In this document: piece after piece, positions 12,026 through 59,863 of the stretch
Position numbering within the stretch: the stretch's first letter is position 1
Layout of the letters: every line of letters begins with the position of its first letter
Source: an uncultured Clostridia bacterium
GTDB lineage: Bacteria > Bacillota > Clostridia > Christensenellales > UBA1242
Direction: 5' to 3'
NCBI GenBank assembly: GCA_947630745.1
Contig: CANRIT010000003.1
Location: forward strand, 55,503 to 119,502
DNA: 64,000 nt
The notes under the pieces: model-generated
Databases searched by the model: none
What the model saw: the letters and a program-made list of their open reading frames with translations, nothing else
What the model was told of the DNA's origin: nothing
Position numbers and translations under genes: made by a program

Positions 12026-12165
12026 TATCCATAAAGAGTGTGCGAGGGACAGCCCCGTTGACCACACAGCAACCTGCTTTAAGCAAGGTGCTAATGGCTG
12101 ACCGATGGGTTTAATTTGATTTTTGCGCTCATCGGTAACGATGGGTTTTTTCATCTCTTTATGGT
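12026..12165 (+). promoter_or_regulatory. SAM-I (S-box) riboswitch leader of metK
   Basis: P1 CCATAAAGAG (12029-12038) pairs with CTCTTTATGG (12155-12164). Conserved core GAGGGA..GCCCC..GCAACC..AAGGTGCTAA present. Extended -10 TGTTATAAT at 12012-12020. Sits upstream of metK. Confidence 0.8.
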
Positions 12166-12181: not shown

Positions 12182-13276
12182 ATGATAAAATTTATCACCA
12201 GCGAATCGGTGAACATTGGACATCCGGACAAAACATGCGACACAATTGCGGATGCGTTTTTAGATGAGGCGCTTAGGCAGGATAAAAACAGCCAAATGGC
12301 GGTTGAATGCGCAATTAAAAACAACAAATTATTCATCTATGGCGAGGCGACAACAAAGGCAAAAATTAACTACAATAAAATTGCGCGGCAGGTTTTAAGC
12401 GAGATTGGGTACAAAAATCATTTTAAAATTATTAAAGAGATTTCACACCAAAGCCCGGATATAAATCAAGCCGTGGTAAAAAACAAGCTTATGGCAAATG
12501 ACCAAGGGATAATTTATGGTTACGCTTGCAACGAAACGGACGAGTTTATGCCGCTGCCAATTTTGATTGCTCACAAACTTATGAAAAGGTATGACGATTT
12601 TAGGCGCACAACCAGCACATATTTTGCCGATGCAAAAGCGCAAGTTTCGGTTAAGTACGAAGATGATGTGCCGCTTGAAATTACCACAATCTTAATAAGT
12701 GTATCGCATCACAAAAATTTAACTCAGCAGCAGATTGAAAACGAAATCAAATCAAATGTAATCATGCCAGTTTTGCAAAATTTTCCGCGATTTAAATTAG
12801 ACAACACGCGCTTTATAATCAACCCAAGTGGCAAATTTACAATTTGGGGAAGTTTTGGTGACAGTGGCTGTGTTGGCAGAAAAATTGTGGTGGATAGTTA
12901 TGGCGGAATAGGTCGAGTTGGCGGTGGCTGTTTCAGTTCCAAAAACGCAACCAAAGTTGATAGGTCAGCTGCATATTATTGTAGATATGTAGCAAAAAAT
13001 ATTGTGGCACACAATTTATGCGATAGGTGCGAAATTTCAGTTGCATATTCAATAGGTATGGAAAATCCAATTTCAATAAACATAGATTGTTTTAACTCAA
13101 ACAAAATACCCATGGAGGGTATATATAATTTTGTTAATAATAATTTTAATTTCAGCCTTAACAACATTATCGACGAACTAAATCTGTTAAATCCAATCTA
13201 TAAACAGACTGCATGTTATGGTCATTTTGGAAATGCAAGCTACCCATGGGAAAAGATTAAACAATGCAAAATTTAA
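12182..13276 (+). CDS. metK: S-adenosylmethionine synthetase
   Basis: SESVNIGHPDKTCD N-terminus, GDSGCVGRKIVVDSYGG and GGGCFSSKNATKVDRS motifs. 364 aa, slightly short for the family. Confidence 0.9.
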   Translation: MIKFITSESVNIGHPDKTCDTIADAFLDEALRQDKNSQMAVECAIKNNKLFIYGEATTKAKINYNKIARQVLSEIGYKNHFKIIKEISHQSPDINQAVVKNKLMANDQGIIYGYACNETDEFMPLPILIAHKLMKRYDDFRRTTSTYFADAKAQVSVKYEDDVPLEITTILISVSHHKNLTQQQIENEIKSNVIMPVLQNFPRFKLDNTRFIINPSGKFTIWGSFGDSGCVGRKIVVDSYGGIGRVGGGCFSSKNATKVDRSAAYYCRYVAKNIVAHNLCDRCEISVAYSIGMENPISINIDCFNSNKIPMEGIYNFVNNNFNFSLNNIIDELNLLNPIYKQTACYGHFGNASYPWEKIKQCKI

Positions 13277-18939: not shown

Positions 18940-19016
18940 GGGGGATTAGCTCAGTTGGCTAGAGCACTTGCCTTGCAAGCAAGGGGTCATCGGTTCGAAT
19001 CCGATATTCTCCACCA
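18940..19016 (+). tRNA. tRNA-Ala (anticodon TGC), CCA encoded
   Basis: Manual cloverleaf with acceptor GGGGGAT/ATTCTCC including G3:U70, anticodon loop CTTGCAA, T-loop TTCGAAT. Confidence 0.9.
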
Positions 19017-19124
19017 TTAAATAAGTCGTTATGCGATTTATTTAAACTTCCTTAAAGAAGCTAAGCATTTTGTAAGTCCGCCTCCTTGGGCTTACAAAAC
19101 AGCTGCGGCTGTAAGGTTTTACAA

Positions 19125-19201
19125 TGAGATGTAGCTCAGCAGGTTAGAGCACCACCCTGATAAGGTGGGGGTCGGTGGTTCGAGTCCACTCATCTCAACC
19201 A
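19125..19201 (+). tRNA. tRNA-Ile (anticodon GAT), CCA encoded
   Basis: Manual cloverleaf with acceptor TGAGATG/CATCTCA, anticodon stem CCACC/GGTGG, loop CTGATAA, T-loop TTCGAGT. Confidence 0.88.
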
Positions 19202-19250
19202 GATCGCCACCTTATATGGAACAAAGTGAAATATAAGTGGGGCGAGGTGA

Positions 19251-19265
19251 TGAGTCCACTCATCT
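19251..19265 (+). repeat. Degenerate partial copy of the tRNA-Ile 3' part (copy 1)
   Basis: GAGTCCACTCATCT (19252-19265) is identical to tRNA positions 19182-19195. Upstream, CCACCTTATATGGA...GTGGGGCGAGGTGA mimics the anticodon stem through the T-stem. Confidence 0.7.
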
Positions 19266-19346
19266 AAGTAGGGTAACCTACTTTTTTTAGACCCCCACCT
19301 TATACGGAATATAATGTAGTATAAAGAACAGGGTCGTGAGGTCCAA

Positions 19347-19365
19347 AGTCCACTCATCTCAACCA
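19347..19365 (+). repeat. Partial copy of the tRNA-Ile 3' end (copy 2, 19 nt identical including CCA)
   Basis: AGTCCACTCATCTCAACCA is identical to 19183-19201. It is preceded by GGGTCG and CCACCTTATACGGA, as in copy 1. Confidence 0.8.
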
Positions 19366-38618: not shown

Positions 38619-38657
38619 TGGAGCTGATGGGCGGACTCGAACCGCCGACCTGCTGAT
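38619..38657 (-). repeat. 39-nt exact copy of the 3' part of tRNA-Thr(CGT), from anticodon stem to CCA
   Basis: TGGAGCTGATGGGCGGACTCGAACCGCCGACCTGCTGAT is identical to 38854-38892. No 5' half is present. Confidence 0.85.
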
Positions 38658-38853
38658 AATGAGCTGAGCAATTAAAACCACTATGGATTTAATTGCCAAG
38701 CGAATTTCATTGTGTAACAATTTAATGTAAAGACAATTAAATGGCATAAAAGGCAATTAAAGACATAAGTGAAGTTTTAAGTTGCGAAGCGAAATTATAT
38801 TGAAACATTGTTTTCAATATTGCGAATCAGATTCGTAAGCAGCAGTATAGAAG

Positions 38854-42762: not shown

Positions 42763-43949
42763 TGCTTTTTAATACATTTTAAAAATTTAAAATTATCAGA
42801 AATATTTGCTAAAAGGTTATCTGTATTTTCAATTTCAAATATTTCTTGGCTTTTTTCTGCATACTGAGTTTGAGATAATATTAGCTCTTGTGATATATTG
42901 TTGTTTTTGTCTAACAGCAAAATACCCGTTCCAATCCAGAAATCTGTGTTGCTTGCTGCAGTAGATTTGAGATGTAGTCCGCCGTCAGTAGGAGATGCAC
43001 AAGGGGATTTTCCCCAAGTCCCAAACAAAGATATTGCATTTGGCCTTTCCCAAAAATTAATTCGCAGTTCATAATCGGCAGCCAAAAAACATTCATTATT
43101 TATTCTTGCTTCAATAATTAATTTGTTAATTTCTTCTTCATTTAAATTTGAATAATCAGTTGTTCCGTTAACTAAAAAGTTGGTTTTTGCTCTTTTAAAC
43201 CAAATTTCTTTTCCTTCGTTTGATAGATTATTATAAGTGGCTTTCATTTCGTCATGATAATCTTTCATGCGGTTGTATAAATCTTGTGGGGTATATAAAT
43301 CTCTTGCAATAATTAAATTATAATCTAATTTTACACCATTTGCTTGGTAAATTTTGTCTGTAAAATATTTTAAAAGTGCCTTAAAAGTTTTGGTGTATCT
43401 ATCAGTTGTTGCTTGTGGCACATTGTTAAATTGTATAGAAATTTCTTCACTTTCGTATTCAAATTTAACACCATATTTGTATTTGGTTATTATTGGCCAT
43501 AAAAATGTGGTCATGTATTTCATGTGAAAAAGTTCAGCCAAATCAACTTCTGGATAGGATGGAGAGTTATAGTTTTTGTAGCCGCCAAAGCCAAAAATAA
43601 AAATGATTGGTTGTTTATTAGTAAAAGAATATATTAACTTATCAATTGTTAGTGAAATGGCCAAATTTGCTTGCTTACTTCCAGAAAATTTTGCAGATAA
43701 TAGGCGCGACAAAAAATCCAACAACAAATTTTTATCATTATTATTTAACTTTGCAAGTTTTGCTCTTTGTTCCAAAACAAAACTTAATTTGTCTTTAACT
43801 TTGTCATCGTCAATTGGCAAATTCATTTCTTTTGCAATCCAATTTATAAAAAGATTCGTATCTTCAGTTGAAAAGCGTAAACATTTTATTAAAGCAGAAT
43901 CGTTTGATTTTGCATTAGATACATCAATTTTAAAATAATTATCAAACAT
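42759..43949 (-). CDS. Hypothetical protein (396 aa), AT-rich orphan next to the tRNA cluster
   Basis: Own promoter (TGTGATATAAT) and AGAGG SD. No family assigned with confidence. 4-nt overlap with the convergent rluD-like gene end. Confidence 0.6.
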   Translation of the reverse strand: MFDNYFKIDVSNAKSNDSALIKCLRFSTEDTNLFINWIAKEMNLPIDDDKVKDKLSFVLEQRAKLAKLNNNDKNLLLDFLSRLLSAKFSGSKQANLAISLTIDKLIYSFTNKQPIIFIFGFGGYKNYNSPSYPEVDLAELFHMKYMTTFLWPIITKYKYGVKFEYESEEISIQFNNVPQATTDRYTKTFKALLKYFTDKIYQANGVKLDYNLIIARDLYTPQDLYNRMKDYHDEMKATYNNLSNEGKEIWFKRAKTNFLVNGTTDYSNLNEEEINKLIIEARINNECFLAADYELRINFWERPNAISLFGTWGKSPCASPTDGGLHLKSTAASNTDFWIGTGILLLDKNNNISQELILSQTQYAEKSQEIFEIENTDNLLANISDNFKFLKCIKKH

Positions 43950-44018
43950 ATAAACCTCTAATATATTATATCACAAAATTAGCCACGATTCCAAATGTTT
44001 TTGAATTATGAAAAGAAA

Positions 44019-44093
44019 TGGAGCTAGTGAGAGGAATCGAACCTCCAACCGGCTGATTACAAGTCAGCTGCTCTACCATTGAGCCACACTAGC
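44019..44093 (-). tRNA. tRNA-Thr (anticodon TGT), CCA encoded
   Basis: Acceptor GCTAGTG/CACTAGC, anticodon loop CTTGTAA, T-loop TTCGATT. Confidence 0.88.
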
Positions 44094-44114
44094 ATCTAAT
44101 AATATTAAATTTTT

Positions 44115-44199
44115 TGGTGGGAAGAGGTGGATTCGAACCACCGAAGACAAAGTCGACGGATTTACAGTCCGTTGCATTTGGCCGCTCTGCAATCTTCCC
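44115..44199 (-). tRNA. tRNA-Tyr (anticodon GTA), long variable arm, CCA encoded
   Basis: Acceptor GGGAAGA/TCTTCCC, anticodon loop CTGTAAA, 85 nt with an extra arm. Confidence 0.85.
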
Positions 44200-44235
44200 A
44201 TATTTATCCATAAAAATGGATTTTACCTAAAAGGT

Positions 44236-44266
44236 TGGTGCCTCGAACCGGAATCGAACCAGTGAC
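44236..44266 (-). repeat. 31-nt exact copy of the 3' end of tRNA-Phe (T-arm, acceptor 3' strand, CCA)
   Basis: TGGTGCCTCGAACCGGAATCGAACCAGTGAC is identical to 44413-44443. It is followed by TTGCAAGAGATTTGCTTGTGT (44267-87). Confidence 0.85.
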
Positions 44267-44351
44267 TTGCAAGAGATTTGCTTGTGTCCCTGTTTCTTTC
44301 AGGTTTTTTTTGGCTTATTTGTTACCCAAACCAATGTGGTTCAAGCAACTA

Positions 44352-44395
44352 TGGTGCCTCAGCGAACCATTAACTTGCAAGAGATTTGCTTGTGT
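44352..44395 (-). repeat. Degenerate second copy of the tRNA-Phe 3' end plus the TTGCAAGAGATTTGCTTGTGT motif
   Basis: TGGTGCCTC (44352-60) followed by AGCGAACC. An exact second copy of the 21-nt motif lies at 44375-95. Confidence 0.7.
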
Positions 44396-44412
44396 AACAT
44401 GGTTCGTGAGAA

Positions 44413-44488
44413 TGGTGCCTCGAACCGGAATCGAACCAGTGACACAAGGATTTTCAGTCCTTTGCTCTACCGACTGAGCTATCGAGGC
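44413..44488 (-). tRNA. tRNA-Phe (anticodon GAA), CCA encoded
   Basis: Acceptor GCCTCGA/TCGAGGC, anticodon loop CTGAAAA, T-loop TTCGATT. Confidence 0.9.
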
Positions 44489-44554
44489 GTGGTGGTTTAA
44501 AACCCAAATTATTTTACACTCTGTTGTTAAATTTATTTACCCTTGTAAATAAAA

Positions 44555-44631
44555 TGGCGACCCGTACGAGACTTGAACTCGTGACCTCCAGCGTGACAGG
44601 CTGGCGCTCTAACCAACTGAGCTAACGGGCC
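44555..44631 (-). tRNA. tRNA-Asp (anticodon GTC), CCA encoded
   Basis: Acceptor GGCCCGT/ACGGGTC, anticodon loop CTGTCAC, T-loop TTCAAGT. Confidence 0.88.
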
Positions 44632-44651
44632 ATAGGTTTGTACAACAAGGG

Positions 44652-44728
44652 TGGTGGGCCTTCACGGACTTGAACCGCGGACCGACCGGTTATGAGCCGG
44701 TTGCTCTAACCAACTGAGCTAAAGGCCC
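44652..44728 (-). tRNA. tRNA with CAT anticodon (elongator Met, or lysidine-modified Ile2)
   Basis: GGGCCTTTAGCTCAGTTGGTTAGAGC...CTCATAA loop. There are no three G:C pairs in the anticodon stem, so it is not an initiator. The 5' half resembles Bacillus tRNA-Ile2 as remembered. Confidence 0.8.
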
Positions 44729-44732
44729 CTAA

Positions 44733-44808
44733 TGGTCGGGGTGAAGGGACTCGAACCCCCGGCCCCATGATCCCAAATCACGTGCGCTACCAACTGCGCT
44801 ACACCCCG
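44733..44808 (-). tRNA. tRNA-Pro (anticodon TGG), CCA encoded
   Basis: Acceptor CGGGGTG/CACCCCG, anticodon loop TTTGGGA, T-loop TTCGAGT. Confidence 0.85.
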
Positions 44809-44828
44809 ACAAACAAGGTTACTTTTTA

Positions 44829-44857
44829 ATTTTACACTAAGTTTAAATATTTGTCAA
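44829..44857 (-). promoter_or_regulatory. Sigma-A promoter of the six-tRNA operon (Pro-Met/Ile2-Asp-Phe-Tyr-Thr)
   Basis: The reverse strand reads TTGACA-17-TAAAAT, about 20 nt upstream of tRNA-Pro. Confidence 0.65.
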
Positions 44858-45078
44858 TAAATTTTAACCAATTTTTTTAAAAAAATTAAATTAAACAAAA
44901 TAACGCCCAAAAAATAAAAAGCCAACAATTAAAGTAAACAATCATTTTAATATATGATAACCGCACAAATTATGATAAAAACAACAGACACAATTACACA
45001 AAAATTTAATCACCCACACTCGTCTAAACCATTTTTTCATACGAAAAAATCAAAATTTAGATTAATCATTTAAAATAT

Positions 45079-59658: not shown

Positions 59659-59857
59659 ATAAATTTTTCCACGCAGCCATGTGTAAACACATGGGGTGCG
59701 GAAAATTTATGGATACTATATTTAATTTTCTTCGTAGGTTTTGCTTGCTAATATAGACCGTGCAGATGACTATTTATGGGATAAGCATAAGAAATTGTAG
59801 GTTCTATATTTTACTTAACTTCGTAGGCTTTCTTTAAAATATAGGACCATAAACATG
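59659..59857 (-). ncRNA. ~200-nt structured leader co-transcribed with tRNA-Glu (two repeated hairpin modules plus an imperfect palindrome)
   Basis: A promoter at 59864-92 points toward tRNA-Glu. Module stems are 59800-11/59837-48 and 59711-22/59750-60. Each loop carries CTTCGTAGG (+ strand). A palindrome at 59659-59710 abuts the tRNA 5' end. Confidence 0.45.
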
Positions 59858-59863
59858 CAATTT

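What the first reader, a model, noticed from the sequence alone, without database searches (positions are those of the whole stretch)
44236..44412. tRNA-Phe 3'-end fragments and a duplicated 21-nt motif embedded inside a six-tRNA operon
Two fragments lie between tRNA-Phe (complement 44413..44488) and tRNA-Tyr (complement 44115..44199).
- An exact 31-nt copy of the tRNA-Phe T-arm, acceptor 3' strand and CCA (44236-66).
- A degenerate copy (TGGTGCCTC...GAACC, 44352-70).

Each is joined to an identical 21-nt motif, TTGCAAGAGATTTGCTTGTGT (44267-87 and 44375-95). A terminator-like hairpin on the + strand, CCTG-tttcttt-CAGG followed by T8 (44289-311), sits between them.

On the transcribed strand the fragments would be part of the polycistronic pre-tRNA. 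This is the third tRNA locus in the window showing 3'-end duplication, here with a crossover near the variable-loop/T-arm boundary. It may represent scars of two integration events or a small tandemly duplicated insert. A T-arm/acceptor minihelix ending in CCA inside a tRNA operon could also be processed by RNase P or RNase Z into a stable fragment.
Basis: partly seen in the sequence, partly recalled or inferred. Interest (0 to 1): 0.55.

Follow-up and report, generated by a model that had tools for sequence, protein, structure and literature searches.

The report
Palindromic tRNA-Phe tail copies in operon
The stretch between tRNA-Phe and tRNA-Tyr is a short array of three decaying hairpin units, each made of an inverted plus a direct copy of the tRNA-Phe 3' part. 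It is the same kind of tRNA-tail repeat long known downstream of E. coli tyrT, and it does not look like a mobile-element scar.

Summary
The last 31 nt of tRNA-Phe recur exactly at 44236-66, a degenerate copy lies at 44352-69, and the 21-nt motif occurs twice and nowhere else in the window.

The interpretation needs revision. Each fragment is the right arm of a quasi-palindrome. The left arm is the reverse complement of tRNA-Phe positions 39-72 (p<=0.002 for 7 units). The "21-nt motif" is the hairpin tip, a remnant of the anticodon arm. The "terminator hairpin" is a decayed piece of a left arm. The layout is therefore direct-inverted-direct. The window holds three such units: one symmetrically shortened, one centrally deleted, and one full-length.

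Homologous 74-78-nt units directly follow tRNA-Phe in at least 5 related Christensenellales-like MAGs. Other relatives have a spacer of 0-35 nt instead.

The E. coli tyrT/rtT repeats and a Variovorax tRNA-Leu array also contain an inverted tRNA copy inside each unit.

I found no integrase, no foreign DNA and no viral contig carrying the core sequence.

The best reading is fold-back (template-switch) duplication of the tRNA 3' part, followed by unequal recombination and decay. The units are co-transcribed and possibly processed as rtT is. Function is unproven: there is no covariation and no excess of G.U pairs.

The parts
44413..44488 (-). tRNA-Phe(GAA), an intact gene with encoded CCA. Its 3' part (positions 39-76) is the source sequence of all the units.
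   Evidence: ARAGORN; Rfam tRNA model, 72.1 bits.
44352..44412 (-). Unit u2 (61 nt), a symmetrically shortened quasi-palindrome. Left arm CTCACGAACCAT (about 44399-44411). Both arms lack the same internal T-loop segment.
   Evidence: MFE hairpin -19 kcal/mol, z = -4.30, 0 of 200 shuffles as good. The left arm aligns to rc(tRNA-Phe) with p ~ 0.0015.
44321..44349 (-). Unit uB, a centrally deleted mini-palindrome: GTTGCTTGAACCA-cat-TGGTTTGGGTAAC. By eye, the left arm resembles rc of GGTTCGAGGCACC and the right arm resembles GGTTCGAGGCACC, both changed by transitions. The stem is 13 bp, including 4 G.U pairs.
   Evidence: MFE -14.5 kcal/mol, z = -3.97. The sense strand folds at -14.3 against -4.2 kcal/mol for the antisense strand. 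Sequence read.
44304..44320 (-). A-rich linker (AACAAATAAGCC + A8) between uB and u1.
   Evidence: Sequence. No terminator-like site found.
44236..44303 (-). Unit u1, a full-length unit. The decayed left arm (44281-44305, overlapping the linker by 2 nt) reads AACCTGAAAGAAACAGGGACACAAG. Tip at 44267-44287 (motif copy 1). The right arm at 44236-44266 is the exact 31-nt copy of the tRNA-Phe T-arm, acceptor 3' strand and CCA.
   Evidence: Left arm against rc(tRNA-Phe 39-72): p ~ 0.0005-0.002. Exact 31-mer. Aligns with the 74-nt units of L044 and L040.
44200..44235 (-). Spacer between unit u1 and tRNA-Tyr. It contains a small hairpin, TCCAT-tttt-ATGGA.
   Evidence: Sequence. Homology with the spacers of relatives is not established.
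44115..44199 (-). tRNA-Tyr(GTA), the next gene of the operon.
44829..44857 (-). Sigma-70-type promoter TTGACA-17-TAAAAT upstream of tRNA-Pro. It is the likely single promoter of the six-tRNA operon, so the units would be co-transcribed.
   Evidence: 11 of 12 consensus matches. A similar ttgaca...taaaat is seen upstream of the operon in relatives.

Best explanation
The 213 bp between tRNA-Phe and tRNA-Tyr are a tandem array of three decayed quasi-palindromic units derived entirely from the 3' part of tRNA-Phe itself.

Structure (shown). The ancestral unit is about 79 nt and begins immediately after the CCA of the gene. It consists of the reverse complement of tRNA positions 72 to 39, then a hairpin tip made from the anticodon arm, then a direct copy of positions about 35-76. 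Gene plus unit therefore read direct-inverted-direct, which is an inverted triplication of the tRNA 3' part.

Mechanism (inferred). I infer that this arose at the DNA level by fold-back or template switching of a nascent strand. The first switch was at the 3' end of the gene. The return switch was at the natural palindrome of the anticodon stem. This is the same logic as tandem-inversion duplications and inverted triplications that are bounded by short inverted repeats. Later steps would be:
- unequal recombination between the 25-31-nt direct repeats, which changed copy number (0 to 3 units among relatives);
- gene conversion from the adjacent gene, which kept the right arm identical to the tRNA;
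- point mutations, central deletions and symmetric deletions, as is usual for DNA palindromes, which eroded the left arms and tips.

Fate of the RNA (inferred). In the RNA the units sit in the polycistronic precursor as hairpins ending in CCA. They are probably removed by the tRNA-processing nucleases, possibly leaving short CCA-ended RNAs as with E. coli rtT. In this genome the units are too decayed to argue for a function of their own.
For: - The left arms of all 7 type-A units (window u1 and u2; L044, L040, L012, L017, L055) align to rc(tRNA-Phe 39-72) with p <= 0.002. They do not align to the tRNA 5' half (p 0.05-0.94). For the window this is repeated with coordinates.
- The predicted fold-back product, rc(39-72) + 27-76, aligns with the real units at 79% mean column identity.
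- In 5 of 5 relatives with type-A units the left arm starts at the first base after the CCA.
- Each unit folds into one long hairpin: z = -2.7 to -4.3 for L040, L017, u2 and uB. The whole insert on the tRNA strand gives z = -4.34.
- Shortened units are symmetric. u2 lacks the same T-loop segment in both arms. Type-C units (L055 u2/u3, L013) and uB lack the centre.
- Copy number varies among about 21 related operons: a 0-nt Phe-Tyr spacer in L083, L084 and L101, one unit in L044, L040, L012 and L017, and three units in L055.
- Mismatches between arms show no strand bias (G.U 20 against A.C 20) and many are transversions (84). This fits DNA-level decay.
- The two other duplicated tRNA loci in the window show the same inverted-plus-direct pattern (Ile 14/14 at 19290-19303; Thr 38845-38818). 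So do the E. coli tyrT units (19/22, p ~ 0.0005) and the Variovorax tRNA-Leu units (14/15, p ~ 0.0025).
- Replication errors at short interrupted inverted repeats are an established source of inverted triplications (PMC4689423).
Against: - The mechanism is inferred from the end product. No intermediate was seen, and no sister strain with and without the units could be found, because the contigs of the closest relatives break at the operon.
- Junction 1, at the acceptor end, has no demonstrated pre-existing inverted repeat.
- The tip AAATCTCTTG is invariant in all 7 units while the left arms differ by about 20-27%. Neutral decay does not explain this, so there may be constraint.
- Two compensatory changes keep the hairpin paired: u1 G-C against u2 U-A, and the L108 left arm tracks its own T-stem. 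These could reflect selection rather than palindrome-templated correction.
- 11 of 14 units fold better on the tRNA-sense strand than on the antisense strand.
Confidence: 0.6

Rival explanations
1. The units are a functional, conserved cis-encoded RNA module. Each would be a hairpin with a G1-C72-type closing helix and a free ACCA that abuts the CCA of tRNA-Phe. It would act as an RNase P-type hairpin substrate, so that one cut makes the mature 3' end of tRNA-Phe. Alternatively, or in addition, it would yield a stable tRNA-mimic small RNA like E. coli rtT.
For: - The units start exactly after the CCA in 5 of 5 relatives and close with GCC/GGC followed by ACCA.
- In three relatives tRNA-Tyr abuts tRNA-Phe with a 0-nt spacer, the same geometry.
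- The tip AAATCTCTTG and the right arm are invariant while the left arms vary.
- Two compensatory changes keep the hairpin paired.
- Sense-strand folding is better in 11 of 14 units.
- E. coli rttR ends at the CCA of a repeat unit.
- Hairpins with a 3' RCCA are known RNase P model substrates (PMC3874170 and PMC3299987, listed).
Against: - RNAalifold finds no covariation; only the invariant tip stem is predicted.
- There is no excess of G.U over A.C mismatches (20:20).
- The units are absent from about half of the related operons, so they are dispensable.
- In the window itself u1 has lost the closing helix, with 11 nt single-stranded before the CCA, and its z-score is only -1.06.
- Right-arm identity can be explained by gene conversion from the gene 60-180 nt away.
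Confidence: 0.2
2. The fragments are attR-type scars of two successive integrations of a tRNA-Phe-targeting phage or ICE whose interiors were later deleted (CIME-like remnants). On this reading the 21-nt motif is the element arm next to the core.
For: - Direct repeats of a tRNA 3' segment are the classic footprint of integration (PMC9897764).
- The identity boundary is sharp, at 31 nt.
- The motif next to the core is conserved across species and also sits next to a differently sequenced tRNA-Phe T-arm in L108.
Against: - The flanking ORFs tested gave no integrase or other mobile-element match.
- No IMG/VR contig contains the 25-nt core, the 23-nt motif or the motif-plus-T-arm pattern.
- The phage database gives only generic tRNA T-arm hits.
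- The DNA between the repeats is not foreign. It is the reverse complement of the tRNA itself, starting at the base after the CCA.
- The motif is explained by the tRNA's own sequence.
- Distant Firmicutes with the same tRNA-Phe have a plain terminator downstream.
Confidence: 0.1
3. The units are retro-copies. A tRNA-Phe 3' half, cut in the anticodon loop, was reverse-transcribed from its CCA end. The cDNA snapped back and self-primed second-strand synthesis, giving a hairpin DNA (inverted arm - tip at the anticodon loop - direct arm). This DNA recombined into the gene's 3' end.
For: - The turn-around point of every unit is in the anticodon loop, for Phe, Ile and Thr alike. That is where tRNA halves begin.
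- The product geometry is what self-primed cDNA gives (inference).
Against: - No reverse transcriptase was looked for or seen in the window.
- The left arm lacks the complement of ACCA.
- DNA template switching at the anticodon-stem palindrome explains the same geometry with fewer assumptions.
Confidence: 0.05
4. The units are ordinary decayed tandem duplicates of the whole tRNA-Phe gene, that is, pseudo-tRNAs.
For: The units in relatives are tRNA-sized (74-78 nt) and begin with GCC like the gene.
Against: - The 5' halves of the units do not align to tRNA positions 1-38 better than shuffles do (p 0.05-0.94). They do align to the reverse complement of positions 39-72 (p <= 0.002).
- ARAGORN and Rfam do not call them tRNAs.
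Confidence: 0.03

Closest known systems
E. coli tyrT-tyrV trailer repeats (178-bp units, rtT RNA / rttR, tpr)
   Same: - Tandem units downstream of a tRNA gene, each ending in the terminal segment of that tRNA including the CCA. In K-12 the 19-mer occurs 6 times, and three copies lie 178 nt apart.
- The units are co-transcribed with the tRNA.
- Each unit also contains an inverted copy of the tRNA T-arm/acceptor region (19/22, p ~ 0.0005), as the units here do.
- The annotated stable RNA rttR ends at the CCA of a unit.
   Different: - No sequence or Rfam-model similarity: there is no rtT hit even at E <= 10.
- The units here are much shorter (29-76 nt against 178 nt), consist almost only of tRNA-derived sequence, and sit between two tRNA genes rather than at the operon end.
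- There is no ORF like tpr.
- The RNA product here is untested.
Inverted triplications / tandem inversion duplications formed at short inverted repeats (TID in Salmonella, from my own knowledge; ODIRA and DUP-TRP/INV-DUP, PMC4689423)
   Same: - Three copies with the middle one inverted.
- One junction lies at a pre-existing short interrupted inverted repeat, the anticodon stem.
- Later remodelling by deletions in the palindromic junctions.
   Different: - The scale is tens of nucleotides instead of kilobases.
- No replication origin is involved.
- The first junction, at the acceptor end, has no proven inverted repeat.
- The mechanism is inferred only from the product.
tRNA gene fragments left by integrative elements (attL/attR duplications; PMC9897764)
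   Same: A direct repeat of the 3' portion of a tRNA gene lies next to the intact gene.
   Different: - The repeats are not separated by a 9-23 kb element or by any foreign DNA.
- There is no integrase.
- The intervening sequence is the tRNA's own reverse complement.
Variovorax tRNA-Leu(UAA) trailer array (found here, L097 and L034)
   Same: - Units of 104-107 nt recur in tandem: three trailing copies in L097 and one exact copy plus a truncated second unit in L034. Each complete unit ends in the same 25-nt T-arm/acceptor/CCA sequence.
- Each unit holds an inverted copy of the tRNA segment (14/15).
   Different: - A different phylum and a different tRNA.
- The units are young and nearly identical to each other.
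- The inverted segment is short and internal.

Membership tests
att-site duplication by an integrative element (prophage/ICE/CIME) | A direct repeat of the tRNA 3' segment flanks the insert. | tested here: met
   Exact 31-nt repeat at 44236-66 and 44413-43.
att-site duplication by an integrative element (prophage/ICE/CIME) | An integrase or other mobile-element genes, or at least foreign DNA, lie between or next to the repeats. | tested here: not met
   The insert is 213 bp and tRNA-derived. The neighbouring ORFs tested gave hits only to cardiolipin synthase, an Nfo-like nuclease, an RluA-family pseudouridine synthase, a Zn-ribbon domain and SpoIIAB/SigF, or no hit; none matched an integrase.
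att-site duplication by an integrative element (prophage/ICE/CIME) | A matching attP (core plus adjacent arm) exists on a free or integrated element elsewhere. | tested here: not met
   0 hits in IMG/VR for the core 25-mer, the 23-nt motif and the motif-plus-T-arm pattern. The phage collection gives only generic T-arm matches. ICE collections were not searchable.
tyrT-type tRNA trailer repeats / rtT RNA | Tandem units downstream of a tRNA gene, each ending in that tRNA's 3'-terminal segment with CCA. | tested here: met
   u2 and u1 end in GGCACCA. The E. coli layout was verified.
tyrT-type tRNA trailer repeats / rtT RNA | Sequence/structure homology to Rfam rtT (RF00391). | tested here: not met
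   cmscan of 44100-44520 at E <= 10 lists no rtT match.
tyrT-type tRNA trailer repeats / rtT RNA | A stable RNA is released from the unit by processing. | not testable with these tools
   Needs RNA-seq or a Northern blot. Only the E. coli annotation could be checked.
Inverted triplication (TID-like) | Three copies of one segment with the central copy inverted. | tested here: met
   Gene 3' part, then rc(39-72), then a direct copy.
Inverted triplication (TID-like) | Both junctions lie at pre-existing short inverted repeats. | tested here: inconclusive
   Junction 2 lies in the anticodon stem-loop, a natural palindrome. For junction 1 (ACCA|GCC) the ancestral downstream sequence is unknown.
tRNA pseudogene (whole-gene tandem duplicate) | The 5' half is homologous to tRNA positions 1-38. 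| tested here: not met
   p 0.05-0.94 for the 7 units.
Intrinsic terminator | A G+C-rich stem of at least 5 bp followed by a T run. | tested here: not met
   0 terminator-like sites in 43900-45000. The CCTG/CAGG stem has 4 bp and lies on the non-transcribed strand.
Dispersed palindromic repeat (REP/MITE-like) | Many copies at unrelated sites. | tested here: not met
   Only the two adjacent copies exist in 64 kb, even with 3 mismatches. In 24 related loci, motif-like sequences occur only next to tRNA-Phe. The insert shares nothing else with the window.

The most novel reading that the evidence does not exclude
The hairpin-plus-CCA units could be a conserved class of tRNA-mimic processing modules or small RNAs in Christensenellales-like Clostridia. 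RNase P, or another tRNA-end enzyme, would recognise the hairpin with its ACCA tail. It would thereby define the 3' end of tRNA-Phe and release a stable CCA-ended hairpin RNA whose invariant loop (YAAAUCU) has a partner of its own. More broadly, tRNA-tail repeats from E. coli rtT to these units would share one fold-back origin and one processing logic.
Probability: 0.15. Interest if true: 0.65.

Novelty: new variant of a known kind. Interest (0 to 1): 0.45.

Why it matters
tRNA 3'-end fragments are routinely read as footprints of phage or island integration. This case shows a second source that can be told apart by sequence: fold-back duplication of the tRNA's own 3' part, recognisable by an inverted copy placed before each direct fragment.

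- The signature is present at three of the eleven tRNA genes in this window, in related MAGs, in a betaproteobacterial tRNA-Leu array, and in the classical E. coli tyrT/rtT repeats. The origin of those repeats has, to my knowledge, never been explained. This gives a testable common origin for tRNA-trailer repeats.
- It warns against using such fragments to delimit genomic islands.
- If the units are processed, they are also candidates for CCA-ended hairpin RNAs in a poorly studied group of gut Clostridia.

Tried and rejected
- Exact look-up of the two flanking proteins in public assemblies: not on record.
- Synteny through the 396-aa downstream gene: its homologues sit next to tRNA-Gly or Peptidase_M60 genes, not this operon.
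- Synteny through the upstream Zn-ribbon gene: the closest relatives (81% and 79% identity) have contigs that break at tRNA-Pro/Met, and others lack the operon there. No strain-level presence/absence test was possible.
- The 23-nt motif in genome contigs and viral contigs: 0 hits. The motif-plus-T-arm pattern in JGI metagenomes: a single hit, L108.
- Phage database with the whole insert: only generic tRNA T-arm matches to Pseudomonas jumbo-phage tRNA-Met and a 5.8-kb faecal contig.
- Whole-gene pseudo-tRNA hypothesis: rejected by the alignment test.
- 'GCC-GNRA-GGC trailer hairpin' as an independent motif of the Phe units: reinterpreted as the start of the inverted arm. A similar small hairpin after tRNA-Met in relatives remains unexplained.
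- RNA-level selection test (G.U against A.C): no signal, 20:20.
- RNAalifold covariation: none.
BLAST only bridges it.
- Resemblance of the tip to rolling-circle nick sites, and of the unit ends to integron attC boxes, was considered from memory and dropped. The sequences do not fit the consensus.
- Bosl & Kersten 1991 (PMC329039) could not be read.

Full report
**1. The observation**

The window comes from a low-GC (about 37%), spore-forming Firmicute. SpoIIAB, SigF and SpoVAD are encoded at 46.7-51 kb. tRNA-operon relatives are MAGs labelled Candidatus Onthoplasma, Christensenella or Clostridia.

ARAGORN and Rfam agree on six tRNA genes on the minus strand: Pro, Met, Asp, Phe (44413-44488), Tyr (44115-44199) and Thr.

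- The 31-nt 3' end of tRNA-Phe recurs exactly at 44236-66, with 0.00 matches expected by chance.
- The 21-nt motif occurs at 44267-87 and 44375-95 and nowhere else in 64 kb, even with three mismatches.
- The degenerate copy is at 44352-69.

**2. What the fragments really are**

On the tRNA strand the 213-nt insert is strongly structured: -60.6 kcal/mol, z = -4.34, no shuffle as good.

A scan of GTDB species representatives with the tRNA-Phe 3' 25-mer returned 98 loci. About 24 of them are Firmicute MAGs, and about 21 of those carry the same Pro-Met-Asp-Phe-(Thr)-Tyr-Thr operon.

The spacer after tRNA-Phe ranges from 0 nt (L083, L084, L101) to 395 nt. In L044, L040, L012, L017 and L055 it starts with a 74-78-nt unit. 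That unit ends in the same T-arm/acceptor/CCA sequence and contains the same ACAAG-YAAATCT-CTTG element as the window. The window's motif is therefore not private to this genome.

Folding these units gave one long hairpin each. This prompted the key test.

- The 5' half of every unit aligns to the reverse complement of tRNA-Phe positions 39-72. For all seven units p <= 0.002 against shuffles.
- The same 5' halves do not align to the tRNA 5' half (p 0.05-0.94).
- Window coordinates of the inverted copies are 44389-44406 (u2) and 44281-44305 (u1).
- A sequence built as rc(39-72) followed by positions 27-76 aligns with the real units at 79% mean column identity.

So a unit consists of an inverted arm, a tip at the anticodon loop, and a direct arm. 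Gene plus unit read direct-inverted-direct.

- The 21-nt motif is the hairpin tip. Its ACACAAG is the reverse complement of the tRNA's CTTGTGT.
- The CCTG...CAGG 'terminator' is a decayed stretch of the left arm of u1. The terminator scan finds nothing in the region.
- The window holds three units, not two:
  - u2 (44352-44412) has both arms shortened by the same T-loop segment (z = -4.30).
  - uB (44321-44349) has its centre deleted (13 bp, z = -3.97).
  - u1 (44236-44303) is full-length with an eroded left arm (z = -1.06).

**3. Generality**

The same signature is found at the other two duplicated loci in the window.

- tRNA-Ile: GACCCCCACCTTAT at 19290-19303 is 14/14 identical to the reverse complement of the tRNA-Ile anticodon-stem/variable region. 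A 12/14 copy lies at 19202-19215.
- tRNA-Thr(CGT): an inverted anticodon arm lies at 38818-38845.

It is also found outside the clade.

- Variovorax tRNA-Leu(UAA) happens to share the 25-mer. It is followed by three tandem trailing units about 104 nt apart in L097, and by one unit plus a truncated second in L034. Each complete unit ends in that 25-mer and contains a 14/15 inverted copy.
- In E. coli K-12 I verified the classical tyrT-tyrV arrangement. The 19-nt tRNA-Tyr end occurs six times. Three downstream copies lie 178 nt apart, and the annotated small RNA rttR ends at the CCA of the first unit.
- Each E. coli unit contains GGGGAAGGATGAGAAGCTTCGA, which is 19/22 identical to the reverse complement of the tRNA-Tyr T-arm/acceptor (p ~ 0.0005).

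**4. Mechanism**

*Shown:* the architecture, its conservation, the variable copy number, and the symmetric and central deletions.

*Inferred:* the origin.

An inverted triplication bounded by short inverted repeats is the known product of replication template-switch or fold-back errors (PMC4689423; the Salmonella TID literature, from my own knowledge). Here the anticodon stem supplies the palindrome for the return switch. The first switch would lie at the acceptor end, where the loop would be ACCA.

The 25-31-nt direct repeats then allow unequal recombination, which explains 0-3 units among relatives. They also allow gene conversion from the gene, which explains why the right arm stays identical while the left arm diverges by about 20-27%. 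Central and symmetric deletions are typical of DNA palindromes.

Arm-to-arm mismatches show no strand bias (G.U 20, A.C 20) and include 84 transversion-type mismatches. RNAalifold finds no covarying pair. Both results fit DNA-level decay rather than selection on an RNA.

*Transcription:* one strong promoter (TTGACA-17-TAAAAT, 44857-44829) precedes tRNA-Pro, and no terminator precedes tRNA-Tyr. The units should therefore be part of the precursor and be removed by tRNA-processing enzymes.

**5. What speaks for more than junk**

- The 10-nt tip AAATCTCTTG is invariant in all seven units.
- A related fragment in a metagenome contig (L108) keeps the tip but carries that organism's own T-stem on both arms.
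- u1 and u2 differ by a compensatory G-C to U-A change.
- 11 of 14 units fold better on the sense strand.
- In relatives the hairpin closes with GCC/GGC followed by a free ACCA, directly abutting the CCA of tRNA-Phe. This is the geometry of RNase P hairpin model substrates (papers listed) and of the 0-nt Phe|Tyr junction in L083, L084 and L101.

Palindrome-templated correction could explain the compensatory changes without selection. The tip conservation remains unexplained. I give a functional reading 0.2.

**6. Rivals rejected or down-weighted**

*Integration scars.* The flanking ORFs tested gave no integrase match. There is no foreign DNA. No IMG/VR contig has the core or the motif, and the phage database gives only generic T-arm hits. 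Distant Firmicutes have a plain terminator after the same tRNA-Phe. Integration is a well-documented source of tRNA fragments (PMC9897764), but it does not predict an inverted tRNA copy starting at the base after the CCA.

*Whole-gene pseudo-tRNA.* Rejected.

*Dispersed repeat.* Rejected.

*Assembly artefact.* Unlikely, because homologous units occur in at least six independent assemblies. Reads could not be checked.

**7. Comparison and novelty**

Functionally and structurally the closest known system is the E. coli tyrT trailer repeat/rtT locus. There is no sequence or covariance-model homology, so this is an analogue, not a member of RF00391.

As far as I can tell, three things are new:
- recognition that such tRNA-tail repeats are inverted-plus-direct copies of the tRNA itself;
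- that this holds across three distant lineages;
- that a family of such units is conserved after tRNA-Phe in Christensenellales-like bacteria.

**Verdict.** It is a new variant of a known kind, of moderate interest (0.45). The most novel reading still open is that of conserved tRNA-mimic processing modules or small RNAs. I give it probability about 0.15 and interest about 0.65 if true.

Noticed in passing
window 19202-19365 (+): tRNA-Ile(GAT) is followed by two tandem fragments. Each starts with an inverted copy of the tRNA's anticodon-stem/variable region: GATCGCCACCTTAT at 19202-15 (12/14) and GACCCCCACCTTAT at 19290-19303 (14/14). Each then has an AT-rich hairpin and a direct 3' copy; the second ends in an exact 19-20 nt plus CCA at 19365. 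A terminator-like TAGG-gtaa-CCTA + T7 lies between them on the tRNA strand.
   Followed up: partly
window 38619-38853 (-): tRNA-Thr(CGT) is followed, after 8 nt, by an inverted copy of its anticodon arm (38818-38845). Then come about 150 nt of AT-rich DNA with internal direct repeats (AATTTCGCTTCGCAA / AATTCGCTTGGCAA), and then an exact 41-nt copy of positions 36-76 (38619-38659).
   Followed up: partly
window 18940-19201 (+): tRNA-Ala(TGC) and tRNA-Ile(GAT) lie together, in the order Ala-Ile, with no rRNA gene detected anywhere in the 64-kb window. This pair usually sits in the 16S-23S spacer.
   Followed up: no
window 12026-12147 (+): A SAM (S-box) riboswitch, 65.5 bits, lies upstream of the 364-aa ORF at 12182-13276.
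   Followed up: no
L062 (Phe-Thr spacer) and L016 (Phe-Thr spacer): Small DUF1653 protein genes (94 and 84 aa, Pfam E ~ 1e-15) are embedded between tRNA genes of the same operon in two relatives. In L062 the ORF starts inside a second, truncated tRNA-Phe unit.
   Followed up: partly
L060 and L107, Asp-Phe spacer (412 nt): A 122-aa ORF with no Pfam match lies between tRNA-Asp and tRNA-Phe in two relatives.
   Followed up: partly
L101, L061 and L013 (tRNA-Thr TGT); L040 and L062 (tRNA-Thr CGT): These are mirror-image cases. A copy of the tRNA-Thr 5' end (exact for at least 18 nt; about the first 37 nt, up to the anticodon loop, in L101 and L013) lies 86-130 nt upstream of the intact gene. In L013 and L101 the insert ends in an inverted copy of the anticodon-stem 5' strand (GCAGCTGAC ... 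GTCAGCTGC) followed by an A run.
   Followed up: partly
L014, L065, L044, L040, L012, L017, L055: first 10-12 nt after tRNA-Met: A small GCC-GNRA-GGC-type hairpin (for example GCCGAAAGGC) directly follows the CCA of tRNA-Met in many relatives. It is absent in the window. It is not a reverse complement of the tRNA-Met end, and its role is unknown.
   Followed up: no
L097 5600-6100 and L034 2900-3300 (Variovorax): tRNA-Leu(UAA) is followed by tandem near-identical units 104-107 nt apart: three trailing copies in L097 and one exact copy plus a truncated second unit in L034. Each complete unit ends in the tRNA's last 25 nt and contains CGAACCGGTCCGCCC, a 14/15 inverted copy of the tRNA.
   Followed up: partly
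L109 (E. coli K-12 1286000-1288200): Each 178-nt tyrT trailer unit, including rttR, contains a 22-nt inverted copy of the tRNA-Tyr T-arm/acceptor (19/22). It pairs with the terminal 19-mer in the predicted fold.
   Followed up: partly
window 59660-59860 (+): Upstream of tRNA-Glu(CTC), on the + strand just beyond its 5' end, there is a hairpin (CCACGCAGCCATGTGT...ACATGGGGTGCGG) and two similar stretches beginning CTTCGTAGG(T/C)TTT, about 100 nt apart.
   Followed up: no
L110-L113 and L094, L066, L106: Contigs of several related assemblies end inside or right at this tRNA operon. This is expected if repeats or strain variation break the assembly graph there. It limits what MAGs can say about this locus.
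   Followed up: no
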